NCBI RefSeq assembly: GCF_988243305.1
Contig: NZ_OZ547136.1
Reading direction: 5' to 3' (one strand)
Length of the DNA stretch: 64,000 nt
Shown here piece after piece: positions 46,853-53,703 of the stretch. The stretch's first letter is position 1; each line of letters begins with the position of its first letter. The notes under the pieces were generated by a model. The model was not told where the DNA came from. It searched no databases and saw only the letters and a program-made list of their open reading frames with translations. A program made the position numbers and the translations under genes.

Positions 46853-47372
46853 TCAGCAACCCCGGTATCAGTTCATCCAGCGCGGCTGCTTTGTTCATGG
46901 CTTTGATGATATCCCGTTTCAGGAAATCAACATGTCGGTTTTCCAGTTCCGGAAAACGCCGCTGCACCGACAGGGGGATCCCGTCGAGAATACTGGCAAT
47001 TTCACCTGCGATCCGCGACAGCACGAAAGTACAGAATGCGGTTTCCACCACTTCAGCGGAGTCTCTGGCATTTTTCAGCTCCTGTGCGTCGGCCTGCGCA
47101 CGCGTAAGTCGATGGCGTTCGTACTCAATAGTCCCTGGCTGGAGATCTGTCTCGCTGGCCTGCCGCAGTTCTTCAACTTCCCGGCGCAGCTTTTCGTTCT
47201 CAATTTCAGCATCCCTTTCGGCATACCATTTTATGACGGCGGCAGAATCATAAAGCACCTCATTACCCTTCCCACCACCCCGCAGAACGGGCATTCCCTG
47301 CTCCTGCCAGTTCTGAATGGTACGGATACTCGCGCCGAAAATGTCAGCCAGCTGCTTTTTGTTGACTTCCAT
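46827..47372 (-). CDS. Nu1: Terminase small subunit Nu1
   Basis: 181-aa ORF beginning MEVNKKQLADIFGASIRTIQNWQEQGMP. Confidence 0.95.
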
Positions 47373-47379
47373 TGTTCAT

Positions 47380-47600
47380 TCCACGGACAAAAACAGAGAA
47401 AGGAAACGACAGAGGCCAAAAAGCCCGTTTTCAGCACCTGTCGTTTCCTTTCTTTTCAGAGGGTATTTTAAATAAAAACATTAAGTTATGACGAAGAAGA
47501 ACGGAAACGCCTTAAACCGGAAAATTTTCATAAATAGCGAAAACCCGCGAGGTCGCCGCCCCGTAACCGGTCGGATCGCCGGAAAGGACCCACGAAATGA
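47380..47600. other. cos region (cosB, cosN, cosQ)
   Basis: Sequence closely resembles the lambda cos region in reverse orientation. Confidence 0.7.
47550..47561 (-). other. cosN 12-nt cohesive end
   Basis: aggtcgccgccc is the reverse complement of the lambda cohesive end GGGCGGCGACCT. Confidence 0.7.
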
Positions 47601-47767
47601 TAATTATTATCATCTATATAAGGTTTATCACAACATGTGTGTACGCCATCAAACCACGAGAAATAATCAATTATGACGCAGGTATCGTATTAATTGATCT
47701 GCGTCAAATTAACGTAAAAGCAACTTCTGATAATACAAATCAGCAACACTGAATATGGGGAAACATT

Positions 47768-47953
47768 ATGTCATCAAAGAACAGAACCCGCAGAACAACA
47801 ACCCGCAACATCCGATTTCCAAACCAGATGATTGAACAAATTAACATCGCTCTTGATCTGAAAGGTTCAGGAAACTTTTCAGCGTGGGTTATTGAAGCCT
47901 GCAGAAGAAGGCTGTCAACAGAGAGTTCGGGTATGAATTACATAATTAAGTAA
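47768..47953 (+). CDS. Small hypothetical protein, possibly ribbon-helix-helix DNA-binding
   Basis: 61-aa ORF with GGGGAA Shine-Dalgarno; basic N-terminus followed by a beta-strand/two-helix pattern (IRFPNQMIEQINIALDL...FSAWVIEACRRRL). Confidence 0.4.
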   Translation: MSSKNRTRRTTTRNIRFPNQMIEQINIALDLKGSGNFSAWVIEACRRRLSTESSGMNYIIK

Positions 47954-48085
47954 CATGGTGTTCACAGAACACGCAGTTACCGGACACATCAGTTTTCCAT
48001 TCGCTCCCTGGCAGTACAGGCTTCCCCTCTGACGGGATAGCCTGAAAAAATAACACAGAAAATTATTTGTTATAATTAATATAAC

Positions 48086-48226
48086 TTACTCAAAAAAAAG
48101 CGACGAGAAAATCAGCATCAACGAACAATAAGCGCCAATACGTGATAACAAATGGCAGCCATATTTATCTGCAGTATAAGCAATGGACAGGATAACCACA
48201 CCAGAAACCGTCAGCATAAAATCCAT
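48086..48226 (-). CDS. Small hydrophobic peptide (46 aa), hypothetical
   Basis: Hand-translated: MDFMLTVSGVVILSIAYTADKYGCHLLSRIGAYCSLMLIFSSLFFE; GGGGAAG Shine-Dalgarno; below the 60-aa cut-off of the ORF track. Confidence 0.25.
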   Translation of the reverse strand: MDFMLTVSGVVILSIAYTADKYGCHLLSRIGAYCSLMLIFSSLFFE

Positions 48227-48576
48227 TTGAACTTCCCCGGACAAAATCGACTCATCTAAAGATTTACAGCTCTTTTTATTATCAATATGTTAAAAGTAAA
48301 ATAAACAGATGTTCAATAACACGAATACAAAAACGTGCTGAAATTCAATGAATCCATTTCTGTGTCATCAATTAATAGTGATAAACATCCGGCTTCTTCC
48401 ACCATCGCACCGGACAGGCGACTATGAGGGGACAACGCCGCGCTCCGTTAACGCGGTAAACCCCGGTGTGTATCGTTTTTGATTATCCCCGCACACTCGC
48501 GCAGAGGAGTCTCCCTGTCGGGCTGCGGTCTCTGTTAATGAGGGAATACAGCGACGATACGGCGCATCAACAAAAC

Positions 48577-49044
48577 TTATTTCAGGCACTGAGTACGGAT
48601 ATATTCCTGCGCCCCTTCCAGTTGCTTGTGCATCGTCATCAGCCGCTCTCTGAGGGTGAAATAATCCCGTTCAGCGGTGTCTGCCAGTCGGGGGCCGGTT
48701 GCATTATCCACGCGGGCGGTGCCGGTGGCTTCACGCACGGGACCTGGACAGGTGGCGTTGATACGCAGGCGCTTACGACCAGCGGCAACGTCAGCGCGAA
48801 GAGTTTCATTTTCAGCTCTCGCATCGGCTAATTCCCTCGAGTATTTTGCATCGAGCGCAGCAACATCACGCTGACGCATCTGCATGTCAGTAATTGCCGC
48901 GTTCGCCAGCTTCAGTTCTCTGACATTTTTGTCGCGCTGGGCTTTGTAGGTAATGGCGTTATCACGGTAATGATTCAGCCCCAGACTAAGCGCACCACAG
49001 GCCACCAGCATGACAATAATCACCACACACAGAACACGGTTCAT
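48577..49044 (-). CDS. Rz: Spanin inner-membrane subunit Rz
   Basis: ORF 48577..49128 trimmed to the [38 protein letters not shown] start. Confidence 0.9.
48639..48824 (-). CDS. Rz1: Spanin outer-membrane lipoprotein Rz1, embedded in Rz in the +1 frame
   Basis: 61-aa ORF with lipobox (VVSAC) and Pro-rich tail ([30 protein letters not shown]). Confidence 0.85.
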
Positions 49045-49262
49045 ATCACCACCAACGGATTGCCCAGACCAGAACAGCAATGGCCACAATACGAATGGCA
49101 AATGCCATTGCCCGAATAAGTTCAGCACTCATCTTTTTAAAGTTCACGATTTCAGCGCAATGACCAGTTTTGCCAGCCCATATAGCATCGGAGACACAGC
49201 AATACCAACAGCCACCCACTTAATAGCAAAAGCCAGCGCTCTGCTGATGTCATCAGTCACTG

Positions 49263-49394
49263 TCACCCCAGCAGCCCCGACGAAGACAACATCACCCAGG
49301 CGAGGGACAGAAAAAGAGCAACCAGCATTAGTGAAAATGAAATACCGACAATCACACACAGGACCTTTGCCGGCGTTATGAGTTTGTCTGACAT
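49263..49394 (-). CDS. Small hydrophobic peptide (43 aa), hypothetical
   Basis: Hand-translated: MSDKLITPAKVLCVIVGISFSLMLVALFLSLAWVMLSSSGLLG; AGGGG Shine-Dalgarno 6 nt upstream. Overlaps the longer alternative-frame ORF 49144..49416. Confidence 0.3.
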   Translation of the reverse strand: MSDKLITPAKVLCVIVGISFSLMLVALFLSLAWVMLSSSGLLG

Positions 49395-49563
49395 AGCTAC
49401 CCCTTAATTGCCACAATTAACTGGGATACTACCCATAAAAAAGGGATGCTCCAGACCAGCAAAAATTTCCAGTTTGGTAATTGACTAATCATGAGTCGCA
49501 ACTCCCTAATCAGTTTGCTAAAATCAATCAAGGCAGCCTCCCATAGCTTACTGCCATAAAAAC

Positions 49564-49600
49564 AAAACCCCGCTTGCTGCCAACAAACGGGGTTTTTACT
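49564..49600. terminator. Hairpin terminator downstream of R
   Basis: aaaaccccg...cggggttttt with T runs on both strands. Confidence 0.55.
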
Positions 49601-49686
49601 TTTATTCACTTACGTTTCGCCAGTTCGCAGGATTTCGTGTTATCCGCCCGCGTGGCCATGCCTTATTTTTCAGCAAAATATTCTGC

Positions 49687-50220
49687 TTATCTGTCGATAC
49701 CCCAGCACGCCAGCGCGCTCTCCTGGTCACGACGGGATACCTGACCGTAGCAGTTGTTTGAACGAATACGGCAGTCTCTGCCACCGTCCTTAATCCACCA
49801 GCGAATCGCCTCACACGCTCCCCTGCGGTCACCAGCATTCAGCCGCTTATAAAACGTCGACGGGAAACACTTACCGGGGCCAATGTTATAGGGACAGAAT
49901 GACGCTATACCCGCTTTCTGTGGTTCGGTCAGTGGAACTTTAATATTGCGCTCCACCCATGCCAGCGCCTTATCCCGTTCAATGGCATTAACCTGGTCGC
50001 ATTTTTCCTTCGACAGTTTCATGCCCGGAATAACAGGTTTACCATCCACCATTGTGGCACCGCGGCAGATGGTCCAGATACCCGCACCATCACGGTATGC
50101 CGTTGTGTGGTTACCTTCTTTTTCATCCAGAAACTGGTCGAGAATATCAGGCGCAGGCGCACCGATGGCAATCAACGCCAGAACGGCAGCCGACAGGCCA
50201 TATTTGATTTTGGTGTTCAT
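49687..50220 (-). CDS. R: Endolysin (lysozyme family) with N-terminal signal-anchor-release-like segment
   Basis: 177-aa ORF; N-terminal weakly hydrophobic Gly/Ala-rich segment (LSAAVLALIAIGAPA). Confidence 0.9.
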   Translation of the reverse strand: MNTKIKYGLSAAVLALIAIGAPAPDILDQFLDEKEGNHTTAYRDGAGIWTICRGATMVDGKPVIPGMKLSKEKCDQVNAIERDKALAWVERNIKVPLTEPQKAGIASFCPYNIGPGKCFPSTFYKRLNAGDRRGACEAIRWWIKDGGRDCRIRSNNCYGQVSRRDQESALACWGIDR

Positions 50221-50276
50221 GGATATTTATCAGGATTTATCGGTTCCGAATCCCTGGATATGTTAAATCTTCAGCC

Positions 50277-50303
50277 CGCCAGCGGTAGGACACTGGCGTT
50301 TTT
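50277..50303 (+). terminator. Hairpin plus T run between the R start and the 104-aa ORF
   Basis: cgccagcggtaggacactggcg followed by ttttt on the plus strand; function unclear. Confidence 0.35.
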
Positions 50304-50348
50304 CCTGATGGCTGAAATATATCTGACAATTTCAGTAGAGGATTAACC

Positions 50349-50663
50349 ATGCATAACGATCAACATAATTATGATTTATGCCTGCAAGCCATAAATGAGC
50401 GGGTAAAATCAGAGTGCCTCTTACTCCTCCCACAAGAACACGATGCAGTAAAATCCATTCAGGCTGAGCCGTATGGACATCTCACACCTGTGACTCTCGG
50501 CATTATCGCCAGAGCATTAACACAGCCCATGCTTATGCGTATTAAGACCAATATAAATAACTGGTTGAATGAAGAATTAAGCTACCTTGATTGTGAGTGG
50601 GACAATCATTACGCAAAAACACAAAAAGAACGCATCTTCAGTCGATTATCCAGCAACAGATAA
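50349..50663 (+). CDS. Hypothetical protein (104 aa), antisense to the late operon
   Basis: ORF with GAGGA Shine-Dalgarno 7 nt upstream; AT-rich codon usage; no family recognised. Confidence 0.45.
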   Translation: MHNDQHNYDLCLQAINERVKSECLLLLPQEHDAVKSIQAEPYGHLTPVTLGIIARALTQPMLMRIKTNINNWLNEELSYLDCEWDNHYAKTQKERIFSRLSSNR

Positions 50664-50672
50664 CGAGCCACC

Positions 50673-51479
50673 TTATATACGCCCTTTCAGATAAGTCATC
50701 CCCGGCTGCATCCAGTCAACAGGTGCTTTCTTAAAGGGCGTATTATCAAAATCACGCAGAAGAGCCTCCAGCACAACTGCATCATTGTCAGCACCACTGG
50801 CCATCATTTCAATCTCAGCTGCTACCTGCAGATATCCCATGCAACGACCAATGCGCTTCATCAGCCCCTGCTTTTTATTGTTCTTCAGGTAATCAATGGC
50901 AAATTCAATGAGCGCCTCACTATGCTGGTGCGATGGCGGTGTTAATTTCCCATTTTCTGAGATGGTTATTTTCCCGCCATCTCCGTATACAACAAAGGAT
51001 GGCCGGTTACACTCCCATTCCTGATCTTTATCAGGTGCAGACGCAATAAAATAACGTTTATTTCCTTCCTCTCCGGCACTTTTAACCGTAATGGAGTACT
51101 CAGACTGCAGACAAGACGCCTCTTTTTCTGACCGCAGTGTTGACGGCGGCATCTTCAGAGAACCAGTAATTCTTCCCGGTAGCTTTCCTTTGTAGGTTAT
51201 CAACACATCCTGCGCCTCTAAAATTATGGGGCGCTTTTCCGGCGACAGCTCATCCCCTTCACATAACCCGGCAGCAACATCCAGGAAGACCTGTCTGATG
51301 CTCCTTCTGGCTGCTGCCTCATAAAACTCCAGCGCGGCACCTTCAACACGGTCCAGCGAGATGTCCAGGTCAAAAATTTCACCGTCAAAGCGTTTTTTGT
51401 CCCGTAACGCTAAAGTTACCGTAACTTTATTCTCAAAATTGCGGATCCCTTTCACAATCAGTTCATAGTTTTGAGTCAT
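50673..51479 (-). CDS. Hypothetical protein (268 aa) inserted between holin and endolysin
   Basis: Start is 4 nt after the S stop (GAGTAATTCAATG) with GGGGAGAG Shine-Dalgarno inside the end of S; soluble; no family recognised. Confidence 0.6.
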   Translation of the reverse strand: MTQNYELIVKGIRNFENKVTVTLALRDKKRFDGEIFDLDISLDRVEGAALEFYEAAARRSIRQVFLDVAAGLCEGDELSPEKRPIILEAQDVLITYKGKLPGRITGSLKMPPSTLRSEKEASCLQSEYSITVKSAGEEGNKRYFIASAPDKDQEWECNRPSFVVYGDGGKITISENGKLTPPSHQHSEALIEFAIDYLKNNKKQGLMKRIGRCMGYLQVAAEIEMMASGADNDAVVLEALLRDFDNTPFKKAPVDWMQPGMTYLKGRI

Positions 51480-51483
51480 TGAA

Positions 51484-51699
51484 TTACTCTCCCCGTGCAG
51501 CCTTACGACGGTCCTCTCTGATTTTGAAATACAGGTTAGTCAGATATGTCAGCAGCCCAAACAGCAGACTCCCCAGCACGCCTATTGCCGCCCACTGAGA
51601 CGGGGAAACCCTGTCCAGCAACTGCAGGAACCAGTAGCCCGTTCCCACCGCTGACGTGGTGTATGACACACCTGTTGTGATTTTTTCCATCTGGTACAT
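51484..51699 (-). CDS. S: Holin, phage 21 S-type (pinholin-like), with dual-start motif
   Basis: ORF 51484..51777 trimmed to [10 protein letters not shown]...; two TM segments; C-terminus [19 protein letters not shown]. Confidence 0.85.
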
Positions 51700-51849
51700 A
51701 CCCCGTCTCCCGTTATCCGGAAGCTGACAACAATAAAAAAAGCCACCAGTTAAGTACTGATGGCTCTGATAACTCATGCAGGCATCTCAGACGACCCACT
51801 GACACTACCGGTGAGTTTAACGATACCTTCCATTTGACTGGCTCACTTT

Positions 51850-53703
51850 TTATGATGATGCCGGTGCATTTATCTCCAGCACCAGACTTTCTATCTCAAC
51901 GCCATACGCTGCATTTTTGGTAATATCCGTCAGCGTCAGCGCATTCAGCCCCAGTGTCAGACTGTCTTTTATGACCTGGAATGCCGGGCCAGCCACTCCA
52001 TTCAGTTTCGGAGTAACCGTGGCACTGCCGGCGGTGAACACCAGTTCCAGCGTCTGCCAGTCATTACTGTAATTCCCGAACTCGCCCAACTTTGTGTTTC
52101 CTGCTTTCTTGTGATGCATCAGATTCAGTTTGCCGTCTGTGGTCTGGGTGAAGAACGACATCAGGAACGGGTTACCAGTCCCGGCCATCGCCACGACGTC
52201 AGGTAACGCTACATCGGTATACAGATAAATTCCCAGGCCGAACTGGTTGTTGGTCAGTGCGCCTGACAGTCGAAACTTACAGCTCAGTCTGCCACCCCGT
52301 GTCAGCAGGGAGACTGCGTCATCCACCGGATGCATCAGGGACCAGGTTTTATTGCTCTGCTTGGCGATCTTAAATACACCACCCGACAACTGAATTCCGC
52401 CGTCCTTAATGGTCCAGCCCTGCGCAGCAGCCTCTCCGGCTGTCGGCAACAGGGAGATTGTGCGTACGGATGCATCTTCAGACGGCCCCGATGGCGTGTT
52501 GCCGCCGGGCGAGGGTTTGATTTCCGGTGCCTTACCACTGATGAAAGCTGAGGTGCGCCCGGCTGCGTTCAGAATAGCGGTTGCCATACGATCCGGAATA
52601 ATGCTCCTGCGCGCCCATGAACTGAAATGTGTCGGGCGGTTTGATGATACCTGGTTTCCATTCGTTCTCGATGCCGCACCGTAATATCCTGATGCCGGAA
52701 TATCCGGATCTTCTGCCGGTGCGTTAGTGGCGGTATTGACGCCGTTACCGTCTGTCATGAAGGGCACAAAATAAACGCCCTCACTCTCCCTGTTTTTATA
52801 CCCGCCGTACACGGTGTCGTACTGGGTAGCGTATGTATTTTTCCAGTAATACGTCGTGTCACCACAAATCCACGGCACATTTACAGCACTACCACCATGA
52901 CACTGCGCGTTAAACACAGTGAGGTCAGCACGAAACTGCTTCAGCATGGCTGTAAACAGCGCAGGTTGCTGTGCGTAGGTGGCGGCGTTCATGTCAAACT
53001 CTCCCTGCATCCAGCACACCGCCAGCAACACATTTTTCGGGTTCTTCTGTAATGCAGCTTTAGTGCGCGCAATCAGGTCCTGATATAACGGTTTACCCAC
53101 ACCCCAGCGTGCCGAATCCTGGCTGGCCCCCGCGTCCGCACTGAATGTCCCCTCCGCGCCCTTGGTGAATGCCGAACCACCACGACAGCATGGTACCAGC
53201 AGGATCCCCGCGTTATTCGGGATATACGGGAGCAGTTTTTTGGCAATATGTAAGCCCTGGCCGACACAGCCGTACTGCCCTTTGCTCAGGTCTGCCTTCG
53301 GATGATTCAGCGTACTCATATCCTGCACATCATGCAGACAGTGGTCAGCCGGGATGATGTCGTTATACGTACAACTCTCTCCACCCGGAGTTACCGTGCT
53401 GCGGCGCGCCAGCTGTTTAATGCGCGGATCCGGAGCATCGTAAGAATCCGGTAACGGAAGCCCTTCACCGTAGGCCATGCCGTTGGACTGTCCGGCAAGC
53501 ACAACCACGTAGAACCAGTCCGGCTCAGATGAAGGGCCGACCTGTGGATCTCCTTCAATAGCCACCGCCTGCATCAGTGTGTACGGCGTAATGGCAACCG
53601 GTCCGCCATATGGCTGCCAGCCCTCTTTCAGTTTGTGTGTCAGCTTTTCCGCAAGGTCTGACGGCGACGCCGCCCTGACAACATCATAGTGTTTAAATGC
53701 CAT
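51850..53703 (-). CDS. Prophage sialate O-acetylesterase (NanS-p / YjhS-like)
   Basis: 617-aa ORF in the position this gene holds in Stx-type phages, between the tRNA cluster and S. Confidence 0.8.
   Translation of the reverse strand: MAFKHYDVVRAASPSDLAEKLTHKLKEGWQPYGGPVAITPYTLMQAVAIEGDPQVGPSSEPDWFYVVVLAGQSNGMAYGEGLPLPDSYDAPDPRIKQLARRSTVTPGGESCTYNDIIPADHCLHDVQDMSTLNHPKADLSKGQYGCVGQGLHIAKKLLPYIPNNAGILLVPCCRGGSAFTKGAEGTFSADAGASQDSARWGVGKPLYQDLIARTKAALQKNPKNVLLAVCWMQGEFDMNAATYAQQPALFTAMLKQFRADLTVFNAQCHGGSAVNVPWICGDTTYYWKNTYATQYDTVYGGYKNRESEGVYFVPFMTDGNGVNTATNAPAEDPDIPASGYYGAASRTNGNQVSSNRPTHFSSWARRSIIPDRMATAILNAAGRTSAFISGKAPEIKPSPGGNTPSGPSEDASVRTISLLPTAGEAAAQGWTIKDGGIQLSGGVFKIAKQSNKTWSLMHPVDDAVSLLTRGGRLSCKFRLSGALTNNQFGLGIYLYTDVALPDVVAMAGTGNPFLMSFFTQTTDGKLNLMHHKKAGNTKLGEFGNYSNDWQTLELVFTAGSATVTPKLNGVAGPAFQVIKDSLTLGLNALTLTDITKNAAYGVEIESLVLEINAPASS

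What the first reader, a model, noticed from the sequence alone, without database searches (positions are those of the whole stretch)
49130..49686. Terminator and overlapping small hydrophobic ORFs between endolysin R and Rz
About 640 bp separate R from Rz. The gap opens with a strong hairpin terminator (49564-49600) and contains a 43-aa hydrophobic ORF with a good Shine-Dalgarno (49263..49394) overlapping a longer alternative-frame ORF (49144..49416) that ends in an amphipathic/hydrophobic tail. This could be a small membrane toxin, a lysis regulator, or remains of a replaced gene.
Basis: seen in the sequence. Interest (0 to 1): 0.5.

Follow-up and report, generated by a model that had tools for sequence, protein, structure and literature searches.

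The report
Tiny membrane-protein cassette between endolysin and spanin
The 640 bases between the phage's cell-wall enzyme gene and its outer-membrane-disruption gene are a widespread, mobile insert: a two-way transcription stop signal followed by four genes for very small membrane proteins of untested function, possibly guarded by a small antisense RNA.

Summary
All genes run on the minus strand. The R-Rz gap is 642 bp (49045-49686). K-12 Qin has no such gap, so it is an insert. It holds a 15-bp hairpin (49564-49596) with A- and U-runs on either side, shaped like a bidirectional terminator. Four packed genes for single-pass membrane proteins follow:
- C': 38-40 aa, 49144-49266.
It abuts the Rz start.

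The families are under purifying selection (pN/pS 0.08-0.6) and carry no functional annotation (four PHROGs, no Pfam). C' and D' lack the N-terminus of their 50-60-aa family.

The same hairpin-leader-ORF cassettes follow endolysins of three unrelated enzyme families. They also sit between baseplate or tail genes in six genera. In uninduced EPEC the sense genes are silent.

Best reading: late-expressed accessory membrane proteins of the lysis step (inferred).

Most novel reading: in 15 of the 16 cassettes examined, a conserved promoter-like element inside the first codons points back at the hairpin. This predicts a ~75-nt antisense RNA. No transcript evidence exists.

The parts
49687..50220 (-). 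R, a SAR-type lysozyme (N-terminus MNTKIKYGLSAAVLALIAIGAP); upstream neighbour of the cassette
   Evidence: ORF; phrog_7 endolysin, 1.5e-63; RefSeq 'lysozyme'; weakly hydrophobic N-terminal segment.
49597..49686 (-). Non-coding stretch between the R stop and the hairpin. It is conserved together with the R 3' end.
   Evidence: query bases 1-143 are conserved even where everything after the hairpin differs. No Rfam match.
49554..49606 (.). Hairpin with a 15-bp stem (49564-49596), an A-run on one side and a U-run on the other. The shape fits an intrinsic terminator that works in both directions. It marks the 5' edge of the mosaic cassette.
   Evidence: terminator scan; z = -3.9; 3 covarying pairs in 10 cassettes; a hairpin of different sequence but the same shape 35-99 nt upstream of the first small ORF in nearly all cassettes.
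49532..49555 (-). Leader stem-loop GGCAG-(14 nt)-CUGCC, with the Shine-Dalgarno GGGAGG (49537-49542) in its loop
   Evidence: Other cassette subtypes have a 5-bp stem of different sequence at the same place (CCUUG/CAAGG, UGACU/AGUCA).
49397..49531 (-). ORF A, 44 aa (MIDFSKLIRELRLMISQLPNWKFLLVWSIPFLWVVSQLIVAIKG). TTG start. A second possible start is the ATG at 49492, preceded by SD AGGGAG, giving 31 aa. One TM segment. phrog_6632.
   Evidence: pN/pS = 0.11 between L093 and L098, against 1.5-4.9 in the other frames. Homologues in Salmonella, Enterobacter, Klebsiella, Citrobacter and Providencia.
49516..49524 (+). Predicted extended -10 box TGCTAAAAT on the strand opposite to ORF A. The predicted start is near 49531 and the predicted RNA runs 49531 to about 49606 (~75 nt), ending at the hairpin. 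Hypothetical.
   Evidence: in 11 of 12 cassettes from five genera the -10 ends at ORF+5 to +8 and the predicted TSS is at about ORF+1. SPN3UB has the weaker TGCTAATAT at the same place, read directly from its sequence; four more A-type cassettes; no synonymous variation in codons 3, 5, 6, 7, 10 and 12; predicted folds. No transcript evidence.
49263..49394 (-). ORF B, 43 aa (MSDKLITPAKVLCVIVGISFSLMLVALFLSLAWVMLSSSGLLG). One TM segment. phrog_4906. The start lies 2 nt after the ORF A stop.
   Evidence: Found at full length in 276 phage records, including Stx phages where it follows ant. pN/pS is 0.14-0.60 in 18 of 21 pairs (the other three 0.74-1.66), against mostly 0.8 or more in the other frames.
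49144..49266 (-). ORF C', 40 aa from the GTG that overlaps the B stop (or 38 aa from the GTG at 49260): M(TV)TDDISRALAFAIKWVAVGIAVSPMLYGLAKLVIALKS. It equals residues 23-60 of the 60-aa family phrog_1115 and lacks that family's N-terminal part.
   Evidence: The full-length family has pN/pS = 0.17. PGAP aa from a CTG at 49299. The copy is frameshifted in phage phiSTEC1589.
49046..49132 (-). ORF D', 28 aa ([28 protein letters not shown]). It corresponds to the C-terminal TM part of the 50-57-aa family phrog_4493. Its last codons, UGG UGG UGA, lie 1 nt before the Rz ATG.
   Evidence: The full-length D family has pN/pS = 0.08. A diverged 28-aa form occurs in L164. The TGAnATG junction is constant.
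48577..49044 (-). Rz i-spanin, with Rz1 embedded at 48639-48824; downstream neighbour, translationally coupled to D'
   Evidence: (phrog_13 Rz-like spanin, 2e-76).

Best explanation
The R-Rz spacer is an inserted, horizontally exchanged cassette of the phage late operon.

Shown:
- It begins with a strong hairpin shaped like a bidirectional terminator.
- Four tightly packed genes for tiny single-pass proteins follow: A, B, C' and D'.
- For the full-length family forms, the positive-inside rule predicts N-terminus in the cytoplasm, C-terminus out, and almost no periplasmic part.
- The last codons of the array (RWW-stop) sit 1 nt before the Rz start codon.
- The protein families are under purifying selection.
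- The cassettes recombine at shared ends: the hairpin plus leader at 5', and ...CGNTGGTGGTGA at 3'.

Inferred:
- No sense promoter is visible between the hairpin and ORF A, and the locus is silent in a lysogen. The genes should therefore be transcribed only by the Q-modified, terminator-resistant late RNA polymerase.
- The proteins would then appear in the inner membrane together with the pinholin, the SAR endolysin and the spanin.
- There they most likely adjust a membrane step of lysis: pinholin triggering, release of the membrane-tethered endolysin, or spanin activity. They are not themselves a holin, an endolysin or a spanin.
- C' and D' are N-terminally shortened copies and may be weakened or inactive.
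For: Insert status: K-12 Qin has the R stop overlapping the Rz start.

Anatomy.

Coding:
- D50: pN/pS 0.08.
- A45: 0.11.
- C60: 0.17.
- B: 0.14-0.60 in most pairs.
- In every case the other frames give about 0.8 or more.
- B keeps 43 aa in 276 phage records.

Link to lysis:
- Of 109 C/D-type cassettes in IMG/VR, 107 follow an endolysin: lysozyme 75, M15 peptidase 21, GH108 11. Two had no recognised neighbour.
- The next gene always starts 1 nt after the stop. It is Rz or a conserved 60-aa lipoprotein.
- Yersinia and Citrobacter show the same layout.

Mosaic architectures.

Late-only expression:
- No sense-strand promoter-like site lies in the gap.
- In uninduced EPEC E2348/69, which carries identical B, C' and D' proteins in the same layout, baseMean is 1.9 for R, 0.87 for the C' frame and 0.12 for Rz. 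A neighbouring prophage gene reads 83.

Precedent: phage Mu gp25, a small membrane-tethered protein required for SAR-endolysin release (PMC9239132).
Against: - No experiment addresses function, and no homologue is characterised. There is no Pfam, NCBIfam or PADLOC match, and the four PHROGs are of unknown function.
- A-type cassettes, and two C/D-type ones, also sit between baseplate genes (gpV-like | sheath initiator) and between tail genes I and J. The cassette is therefore not confined to lysis genes, though every position is in a late operon.
- C' and D' lack the family's N-terminal part. C' is frameshifted and D' internally deleted in phage phiSTEC1589. ORF A carries a premature stop in L004.
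- Qin-type cassettes function without any of these genes.
- The silence in a lysogen is one dataset under two growth conditions.
Confidence: 0.45

Rival explanations
1. Antisense-locked small-toxin module, laid out like a type I toxin-antitoxin system or P22 sar/ant. It can coexist with the best explanation.
- The first codons of the first ORF carry a promoter on the opposite strand.
- That promoter makes a 74-109-nt RNA (about 75 nt here, plus strand ~49531-49606).
- The RNA is complementary to the start codon and Shine-Dalgarno of ORF A and ends at the bidirectional hairpin.
- In the lysogen it would block any leak-through translation of the membrane peptides and, through coupling, of Rz.
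- Massive late transcription would overcome it.
For: -: in 11 of 12 cassettes (Escherichia, Salmonella, Yersinia, Citrobacter, Serratia, Klebsiella) an antisense -10 ends at ORF+5 to +8. It is TGCTAAAAT in A-type cassettes and TATACT or TATAAT in C/D-type ones. C/D-type cassettes also have a -35 (TGGACA or TAGTCA) at an 18-nt spacing. SPN3UB has the weaker TGCTAATAT at the same place (read).
- four more A-type cassettes (Enterobacter, K. grimontii, Providencia, Citrobacter) show the same element.
- for the two C/D-type cassettes scanned, this site was the tool's only promoter hit in the region.
- A and C/D proteins are not demonstrably homologous except in their last 15 residues.
- Synonymous variation is suppressed in the first 12-15 codons. 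In the D comparison, 2 synonymous changes fall in codons 1-15, while nearly every codon from 20 to 36 differs.
- The hairpin has both an A-run and a U-run.
- The predicted RNAs fold as anti-SD, then a stem-loop, then an A-rich spacer, then the terminator.
- Precedents: PasB, a validated 83-nt sRNA antisense to the late operon that ends at a hairpin just after the upstream gene; and P22 sar in the ant moron (PMC2629481).
Against: - No transcript evidence. There is no Hfq-CRAC peak in any Sakai R-Rz gap.
- No RIL-seq element is listed for E2348C_1412-1417 in the uncut summary table.
- No Rfam family matches.
- AT-rich Lys, Tyr and Phe codons near a start codon easily mimic -10 boxes.
- Nucleotide conservation of the 5' end could equally reflect translation-initiation constraints or recent recombination.
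- For A-type cassettes the standard scan found promoter-like sites at other, non-conserved positions.
- The IMG/VR sample was selected with a pattern that includes the motif, so it is not an independent test.
Confidence: 0.3
2. Generic moron unrelated to lysis. The small membrane proteins serve another purpose, such as blocking superinfection or acting on a host membrane protein. They sit next to Rz only because that junction tolerates insertions.
For: - The same cassette types occur at gpV|gpW and gpI|gpJ junctions.
- In Stx phages the R-Rz gap holds an antirepressor gene, which shows it is an insertion hot spot.
- Cassette ends are shared while the ORFs are swapped.
Against: - The genes are silent in the lysogen, whereas exclusion functions are usually prophage-expressed.
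- There is no sense promoter, and the terminator lies upstream of the genes rather than downstream.
- C/D-type ORFs show a strong bias to endolysin neighbours (107 of 109) and are tightly coupled to the spanin or lipoprotein gene.
Confidence: 0.2
3. The peptides are irrelevant. The last ORF is only a leader that delivers ribosomes to a poorly initiating Rz start, and the other ORFs are decaying remnants.
For: - The RWW-UGA-N-AUG junction is invariant across unrelated ORF families and in front of different downstream genes.
- C' and D' are truncated.
- Decay is seen in some prophages.
Against: - Purifying selection acts over the whole length, including the TM residues: 0.08 for D and 0.11 for A.
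- B keeps its length in 276 records.
- Qin couples Rz directly to R without any leader ORF.
Confidence: 0.1

Closest known systems
Morons of lambdoid late operons (Juhala et al. 2000, as cited in PMC4104026 and PMC2629481), for example the P22/epsilon34 'ant moron'
   Same: Extra DNA sits between two genes that are adjacent in relatives (Qin R/Rz). It is tolerated in a Q-antiterminated operon, carries an intrinsic terminator, and is exchanged as a unit. The same gap holds ant in Stx phages.
   Different: No sense-strand promoter was found. The terminator lies upstream of the genes rather than downstream. The genes are silent in the lysogen in the one dataset available.
Phage Mu gp25 'releasin' (DUF2730; PMC9239132)
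   Same: A small membrane-tethered late protein encoded near a SAR endolysin and spanins. It is neither holin, endolysin nor spanin, and it modulates the endolysin's membrane step.
   Different: gp25 is 99 aa, N-out/C-in, with a 73-aa acidic cytoplasmic domain. The ORFs here are 28-60 aa, predicted N-in for the full-length forms, and have no DUF2730 match. Function is untested here.
Holin/antiholin dual-start proteins (lambda S105/S107, phage 21 S68/S71)
   Same: Small inner-membrane late proteins. A and C/D have two in-frame starts, each with its own Shine-Dalgarno, and the longer form adds basic residues.
   Different: There is one TM segment instead of two or three, and no holin family match. 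A separate S21-like holin is present at 51484-51699.
Cis-antisense RNA locks on small genes: hok/sok, symE/SymR, P22 sar/ant
   Same: The predicted layout runs: terminator of the antisense RNA, then the ribosome site and start of a small (membrane) protein, then an antisense promoter inside the first codons. Predicted RNA size is 74-109 nt.
   Different: No Hok (Pfam) or Sok (Rfam) match. The toxin-side mRNA has no promoter of its own. The antisense RNA is only predicted.
Prophage sRNAs convergent to the late operon: PasB (EPEC), AgvB/AsxR (EHEC)
   Same: They are short RNAs antisense to late transcripts in intergenic hot spots, ending at a hairpin just after the upstream gene. An A-type cassette occupies the PasB position (gpI|gpJ) in a Citrobacter prophage.
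   Different: There is no sequence similarity. PasB and AgvB are Hfq-bound and detected experimentally, and nothing is detected in the R-Rz gap in the same datasets.

Membership tests
Rho-independent (intrinsic) terminator, bidirectional | GC-rich stem-loop followed by a U-run on the transcribed strand, on both strands | tested here: met
   15-bp stem, UUUUGUUUUU on the minus strand and UUUUUACUUUU on the plus strand, z = -3.9. Covariation. Actual termination was not assayed.
Moron | Inserted between genes that are adjacent in related phages | tested here: met
   Qin rrrQ and rzpQ overlap by 4 nt. Several alternative contents occupy the same gap.
Moron | Own promoter driving the inserted gene, with expression from the prophage | tested here: not met
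   No sense promoter-like site lies between the hairpin and ORF A. Sense RNA-seq baseMean is at most 2 in uninduced EPEC.
Hok/Gef type I toxin with Sok RNA | Match to the Hok/Gef protein family and to the Sok RNA family | tested here: not met
   Pfam scans of B and C60 gave no hit even at E <= 10. Rfam has no Sok or hok hit in 47000-52000 or in 12 related loci.
Type I toxin-antitoxin or cis-antisense-regulated small protein (generic) | An antisense RNA is actually transcribed opposite the toxin's ribosome-binding site | not testable with these tools
   Only a conserved promoter-like motif and a terminator are seen. Published Hfq-CRAC and RIL-seq lists show nothing here.
Holin (class II / pinholin) | Two TM domains and a holin family match | tested here: not met
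   Each ORF has one hydrophobic segment. PHROG hits are all of unknown function, whereas the true holin at 51484-51699 hits holin PHROGs.
Releasin (DUF2730) | DUF2730 match, N-out/C-in topology, and a cytoplasmic domain of about 70 aa | tested here: not met
   No Pfam match for the two ORFs scanned, B and C60. All ORFs are 28-60 aa, with basic N-flanks in the full-length family forms. Description of gp25 is from PMC9239132.
Spanin (i-, o- or u-spanin) | A periplasmic domain spanning to the outer membrane, or a lipobox | tested here: not met
   C-terminal tails are 2-14 residues and there is no lipobox. Only Rz hits the spanin PHROGs.
PHROG families 6632 / 4906 / 1115 / 4493 (unknown function) | Significant profile match | tested here: met
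   A 1.3e-12 (70-aa form), B 4.5e-21, C60 6.6e-42, D37 5.5e-16, and the window's 28-aa D' 3.8e-06.

The most novel reading that the evidence does not exclude
The hairpin is the terminator of an undescribed family of ~75-110-nt cis-antisense RNAs. Their promoter lies inside the first codons of the first small ORF. Each cassette would then be a self-contained unit: an antisense RNA plus genes for tiny membrane proteins. It would be a type-I-toxin-like lock that only Q-antiterminated late transcription can open. Such units would move between three hot spots of lambdoid late operons (endolysin|spanin, gpV|gpW, gpI|gpJ) across Enterobacterales.
Probability: 0.3. Interest if true: 0.75.

Novelty: new variant of a known kind. 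Interest (0 to 1): 0.55.

Why it matters
These ORFs are present in a large share of E. coli genomes. Partial matches occur in 2088 of 5426 complete genomes, with up to 17 places per genome, and they are in the Stx phages of EHEC. Every database searched lists them as 'hypothetical', or does not annotate them at all.

If they tune lysis, they would add a further component to the pinholin / SAR-endolysin / spanin pathway. They would also affect the timing of phage and Shiga-toxin release.

If the antisense RNA exists, it would be a new, easily testable class of prophage sRNA and a new way of gating toxic late genes.

In either case the result gives correct gene models for a region that annotation pipelines handle inconsistently. 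Examples are the 70-aa, 90-aa and CTG-start 51-aa models, and loci where nothing is annotated.

Tried and rejected
1. AgvB/AsxR-like sRNA in the R-to-hairpin spacer. Rfam includes both families and gave no hit. The published sRNAs lie upstream of the holin.
2. EcOnc Hfq-CRAC peaks in the R-Rz gap. None exists. EcOnc10/11/12 lie downstream of Rz, and EcOnc33 lies inside nanS-p.
3. PasB identical to this element. The probe sequence is absent from the window. PasB lies between tail genes I and J.
4. RIL-seq or RNA-seq support in EPEC, which carries the same cassette. The sense genes are silent and no RIL-seq element is listed.
5. B as a duplicated Rz TM domain. BLASTP finds no similarity.
6. A and C/D as a single family. 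hhalign aligns only the last 15 residues, with probability 48%.
7. Hok, holin, releasin, spanin or defence-system membership. No matches.
8. The 70-aa (49397-49609) and 90-aa (49144-49416) ORFs as real genes. The first runs through the hairpin. The second overlaps B in a frame with pN/pS above 1.
9. Broader sampling in one-genome-per-species contigs. Both scans came back empty.
10. The search for related loci with B alone.
11. The plus-strand promoter-like hit at 49388-49417. It is at chance level and is not conserved in position among A-type cassettes.
Full report
WHAT IS THERE

All genes in this part of the window run on the minus strand.
- R is a 177-aa lysozyme with a weakly hydrophobic N-terminal signal-anchor. 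It occupies 49687-50220.
- Rz occupies 48577-49044, with Rz1 embedded at 48639-48824.
- The gap between them is 642 bp.
- In the K-12 Qin prophage, which has the same holin-YdfR-lysozyme-Rz cassette, the R stop overlaps the Rz start. The 642 bp are therefore an insertion.
- The stretch is common. A full-length match is found in 586 of 5426 complete E. coli genomes, and parts of it in 2088, with up to 17 places per genome.

THE HAIRPIN

A 15-bp stem with a 3-nt loop lies at 49564-49596, 90 nt after the R stop.
- On the minus strand it is followed by UUUUGUUUUU. On the plus strand it is followed by UUUUUACUUUU.
- The 71-nt stretch folds at -26.5 kcal/mol, z = -3.9, and no shuffle folds as well.
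- Ten cassettes from different phages have hairpins of different sequence but the same design. Three stem pairs change on both sides while staying paired.
- Homology between otherwise different R-Rz gaps ends exactly at this hairpin (query bases 1-143 only). It therefore marks a mosaic boundary.
- Its shape is that of a bidirectional intrinsic terminator. Termination itself was not assayed.

THE GENES

Four small ORFs follow the hairpin with almost no spacing.
- A runs 49397-49531 and encodes 44 aa from a TTG, preceded by GGGAGG in the loop of a small leader hairpin. An in-frame ATG at 49492 has its own AGGGAG.
- B runs 49263-49394 and encodes 43 aa. It starts 2 nt after the A stop.
- C' runs 49144-49266. 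Its GTG overlaps the B stop (GTGA). A second GTG lies at 49260.
- D' runs 49046-49132 and encodes 28 aa. Its UGA lies 1 nt before the Rz AUG.

RefSeq annotates B, a 51-aa version of C' that starts on a CTG, and D'. A GenBank phage record annotates a 70-aa version of A that runs through the hairpin, plus B and C'.

Each protein has one hydrophobic segment, with mean Kyte-Doolittle score of 1.9-2.9 over 19 residues. The full-length family forms have basic N-terminal flanks, while the truncated C' and D' have neutral or slightly acidic ones. C-terminal tails are only 2-14 residues. The full-length forms are therefore predicted to be N-in, tail-anchored-like inner-membrane peptides.

ARE THEY REAL GENES?

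Homologues were collected from E. coli genomes, GenBank phages, IMG/VR and other genera. I compared non-synonymous and synonymous change in the annotated frame with the two other frames as controls.
- D family (L010 vs L008): 20.5 synonymous and 5.5 non-synonymous differences, pN/pS 0.08. The other frames gave 1.4 and 6.5.
- A family (L093 vs L098): 0.11, against 1.5 and 4.9.
- C family: 0.17.
- B family: 0.14-0.60 in 18 of 21 pairs. The three higher values (0.74-1.66) are mostly pairs with few differences. The other frames were mostly 0.8 or more.

B keeps exactly 43 codons in 276 phage records at 63-100% identity, including the Stx phages, where it follows the antirepressor gene.

The families correspond to PHROGs 6632, 4906, 1115 and 4493, all of unknown function. 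There is no Pfam match for B or C60 (the two scanned), and no NCBIfam or PADLOC match. No homologue carries a functional name.

Where it overlaps B, its frame shows pN/pS of 1.1-3.3 against the window type (fr2). Only its last 38-40 codons, which are C', belong to a conserved family.

TRUNCATED COPIES

The full C family is 60 aa (MGKYKRILLRLTMKNGLELKAPVTDD...). The full D family is 50-57 aa (..GKYKRFFLRLSIMKGIEVETPASLDLTRAAAFAIR...RWW).
- The window's C' equals residues 23-60 and D' the last ~27 residues.
- One IMG/VR locus has C60-B-C'-D'-Rz, so B-C'-D' travels as a block.
- In phage phiSTEC1589, C' is frameshifted and D' internally deleted.
- A diverged 28-aa D' form (MSTDFIRATAFAIRLVAIAVLIWAVRWW) recurs in an unrelated cassette.

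Whether C' and D' still act is open.

A MOBILE CASSETTE

The gap is a mosaic hot spot. The architectures seen are:
- R-hairpin-C60-B-Rz. This is the O157:H7 type and the commonest in the IMG/VR sample drawn with C60 as query.
- R-hairpin-A-B-C'-D'-Rz, which is the window and EPEC type.
- R-hairpin-A-B-Rz.
- R-hairpin-D50-Rz.
- R-hairpin-A45-Rz, found in E. coli and in Salmonella phage SPN3UB.
- R-ant-B-Rz, found in Stx phages.

Different ORF families share the 5' end, namely the hairpin plus a leader such as CCTTGAnTAAGGCAAGGGAGAAC. They also share the 3' end...CGNTGGTGGTGA, which encodes RWW-stop. Profile comparison of A and C/D aligns only those last 15 residues.

A pattern scan of IMG/VR found 109 C/D-type cassettes (63 distinct).
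- 107 followed an endolysin: R-type lysozyme 75, M15 peptidase 21, GH108 11. Two had no recognised neighbour.
- A hairpin lay 44-99 nt upstream in 60 of the 63 distinct sequences.
- In the twelve loci examined, the last small ORF of the array ends 1 nt before the next gene's start. That gene is Rz or a conserved 60-aa lipoprotein.
- Yersinia and Citrobacter prophages show the same layout.

The cassettes also occur outside lysis genes.
- Between a gpV-like baseplate gene and the sheath-initiator gene: Salmonella phage SEN34, E. coli Rac-SA53, and Serratia, Klebsiella and K. grimontii prophages.
- Between tail genes I and J in a Citrobacter prophage.

All of these positions are inside late operons.

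EXPRESSION

No sense-strand promoter-like site lies between the hairpin and ORF A. About 30 nt separate them.

EPEC E2348/69 prophage PP6 carries the same cassette, with protein accessions for B, C' and D' identical to the window's exact-match record. In the published RNA-seq table of uninduced cultures, baseMean is 1.9 for R, 0.87 for the C' frame and 0.12 for Rz. A nearby prophage gene reads 83 (PMC8550237 supplement).

I infer that the genes are made only from the Q-antiterminated late transcript, together with the holin, endolysin and spanin.

MOST LIKELY MECHANISM

Shown: a terminator-shaped boundary, four selected or partly truncated single-pass membrane-protein genes, translational coupling into Rz, and a strong association of C/D-type ORFs with endolysin-spanin junctions.

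Inferred: late-only expression, and a role in a membrane step of lysis such as pinholin triggering, SAR-endolysin release or spanin control. The precedent is Mu gp25, a small membrane-tethered protein required for SAR-endolysin release (PMC9239132). These ORFs fail every membership test for releasin, holin, spanin or Hok.

I put this reading at 0.45. A generic moron function (0.2) and a pure coupling-leader or remnant reading (0.1) remain possible.

THE ANTISENSE LEAD

In 11 of 12 cassettes from five genera, and in four further A-type cassettes, the strand opposite to the first small ORF carries a promoter-like element. Its -10 box ends at ORF position +5 to +8.
- A-type cassettes have TGCTAAAAT, an extended -10, formed by the D-F-S-K codons.
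- C/D-type cassettes have TATACT or TATAAT, formed by the (K/N)-Y-K codons, with TGGACA or TAGTCA 18 nt upstream.
- The twelfth cassette, SPN3UB, has the weaker TGCTAATAT at the same place (read).
- For the two C/D-type cassettes scanned, this site was the tool's only promoter hit in the region.

The predicted start lies opposite the start codon. The RNA would run over the anti-Shine-Dalgarno and a small stem-loop and end at the hairpin. Predicted length is 74-109 nt, and about 75 nt here (plus strand ~49531-49606).

Synonymous variation is suppressed in the first 12-15 codons of both families.

This layout resembles hok/sok, symE/SymR and P22 sar/ant (the last cited from PMC2629481). It also resembles the validated EPEC sRNA PasB, which is antisense to the late operon and ends at a hairpin just after the upstream tail gene.

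Evidence against the lead:
- No Hfq-CRAC peak.
- No RIL-seq element.
- No Rfam family.
- AT-rich N-terminal codons mimic -10 boxes.
- The IMG/VR sample was chosen with a pattern that contains the motif.

I rate it 0.3. It is directly testable.

VERDICT

The finding is real and richer than described. It is neither an artefact nor a characterised system. It is a new variant of the moron or accessory-gene kind, with an unusual upstream bidirectional terminator and a possible antisense lock. Interest 0.55.

Noticed in passing
window 48455-48503 (+), just past the Rz stop: This stretch is 95% identical to the Sakai Sp10 site of the Hfq-CRAC peak EcOnc11 (homologues EcOnc10 and EcOnc12). That peak is a candidate sRNA antisense to the late operon, 75-120 nt downstream of Rz.
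   Followed up: partly
window 50673-51479 (-) and 50349-50663 (+): Between the holin and R lies a 268-aa protein. Its first 100 residues are a DUF1327/YdfR domain (Pfam 1.5e-40), joined to a long extra C-terminal part (phrog_1085). A 104-aa ORF (phrog_1853) lies on the opposite strand. Neither matches a defence family.
   Followed up: partly
window 51484-51699 (-): The class II (phage-21-type) holin has two in-frame start codons, at Met1 and Met4 (MYQMEK...). This is the dual-start pattern known for pinholin and antiholin. The mechanical ORF list extends it to 97 aa.
   Followed up: no
L010 1655-1837; L116, L117, L127, L133, L200 (IMG/VR): In M15- and GH108-endolysin cassettes the D-type small ORF is followed (TGAnATG) by a conserved 60-aa lipoprotein (MxRKHWTHRMPRTAAKWALVAILVPFFLVGC...). 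No Rz-like i-spanin is seen. It may be an unrecognised outer-membrane-disruption component.
   Followed up: no
L112 1262-1372 (E. coli E2348/69 PP6) and L237 2001-2138 (Citrobacter): The validated sRNA PasB lies between tail genes I and J. It ends at a hairpin just after gene I and overlaps a 22-aa ORF on the sense strand. An A-type small-ORF cassette sits at the same I|J junction in a Citrobacter prophage.
   Followed up: partly
window 49144-49299 (-): The RefSeq model WP_042004856.1 (51 aa) begins on a CTG codon at 49299, inside ORF B. The homologous family supports a start at GTG 49266 or 49260 instead.
   Followed up: yes
L005, L035 and 7 further loci: These loci carry a B variant whose last 17 residues are read in the other frame (...LRLDDVVFVGDAGVRGI) yet which still ends at 43 aa. 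The C-terminal tail of B is its most variable part.
   Followed up: no
window 49597-49686 (-): The 90 nt between the R stop and the hairpin are conserved together with the R 3' end, even where the rest of the gap differs. They contain the near-palindrome GGATAACACGAAATCC. No Rfam match.
   Followed up: partly
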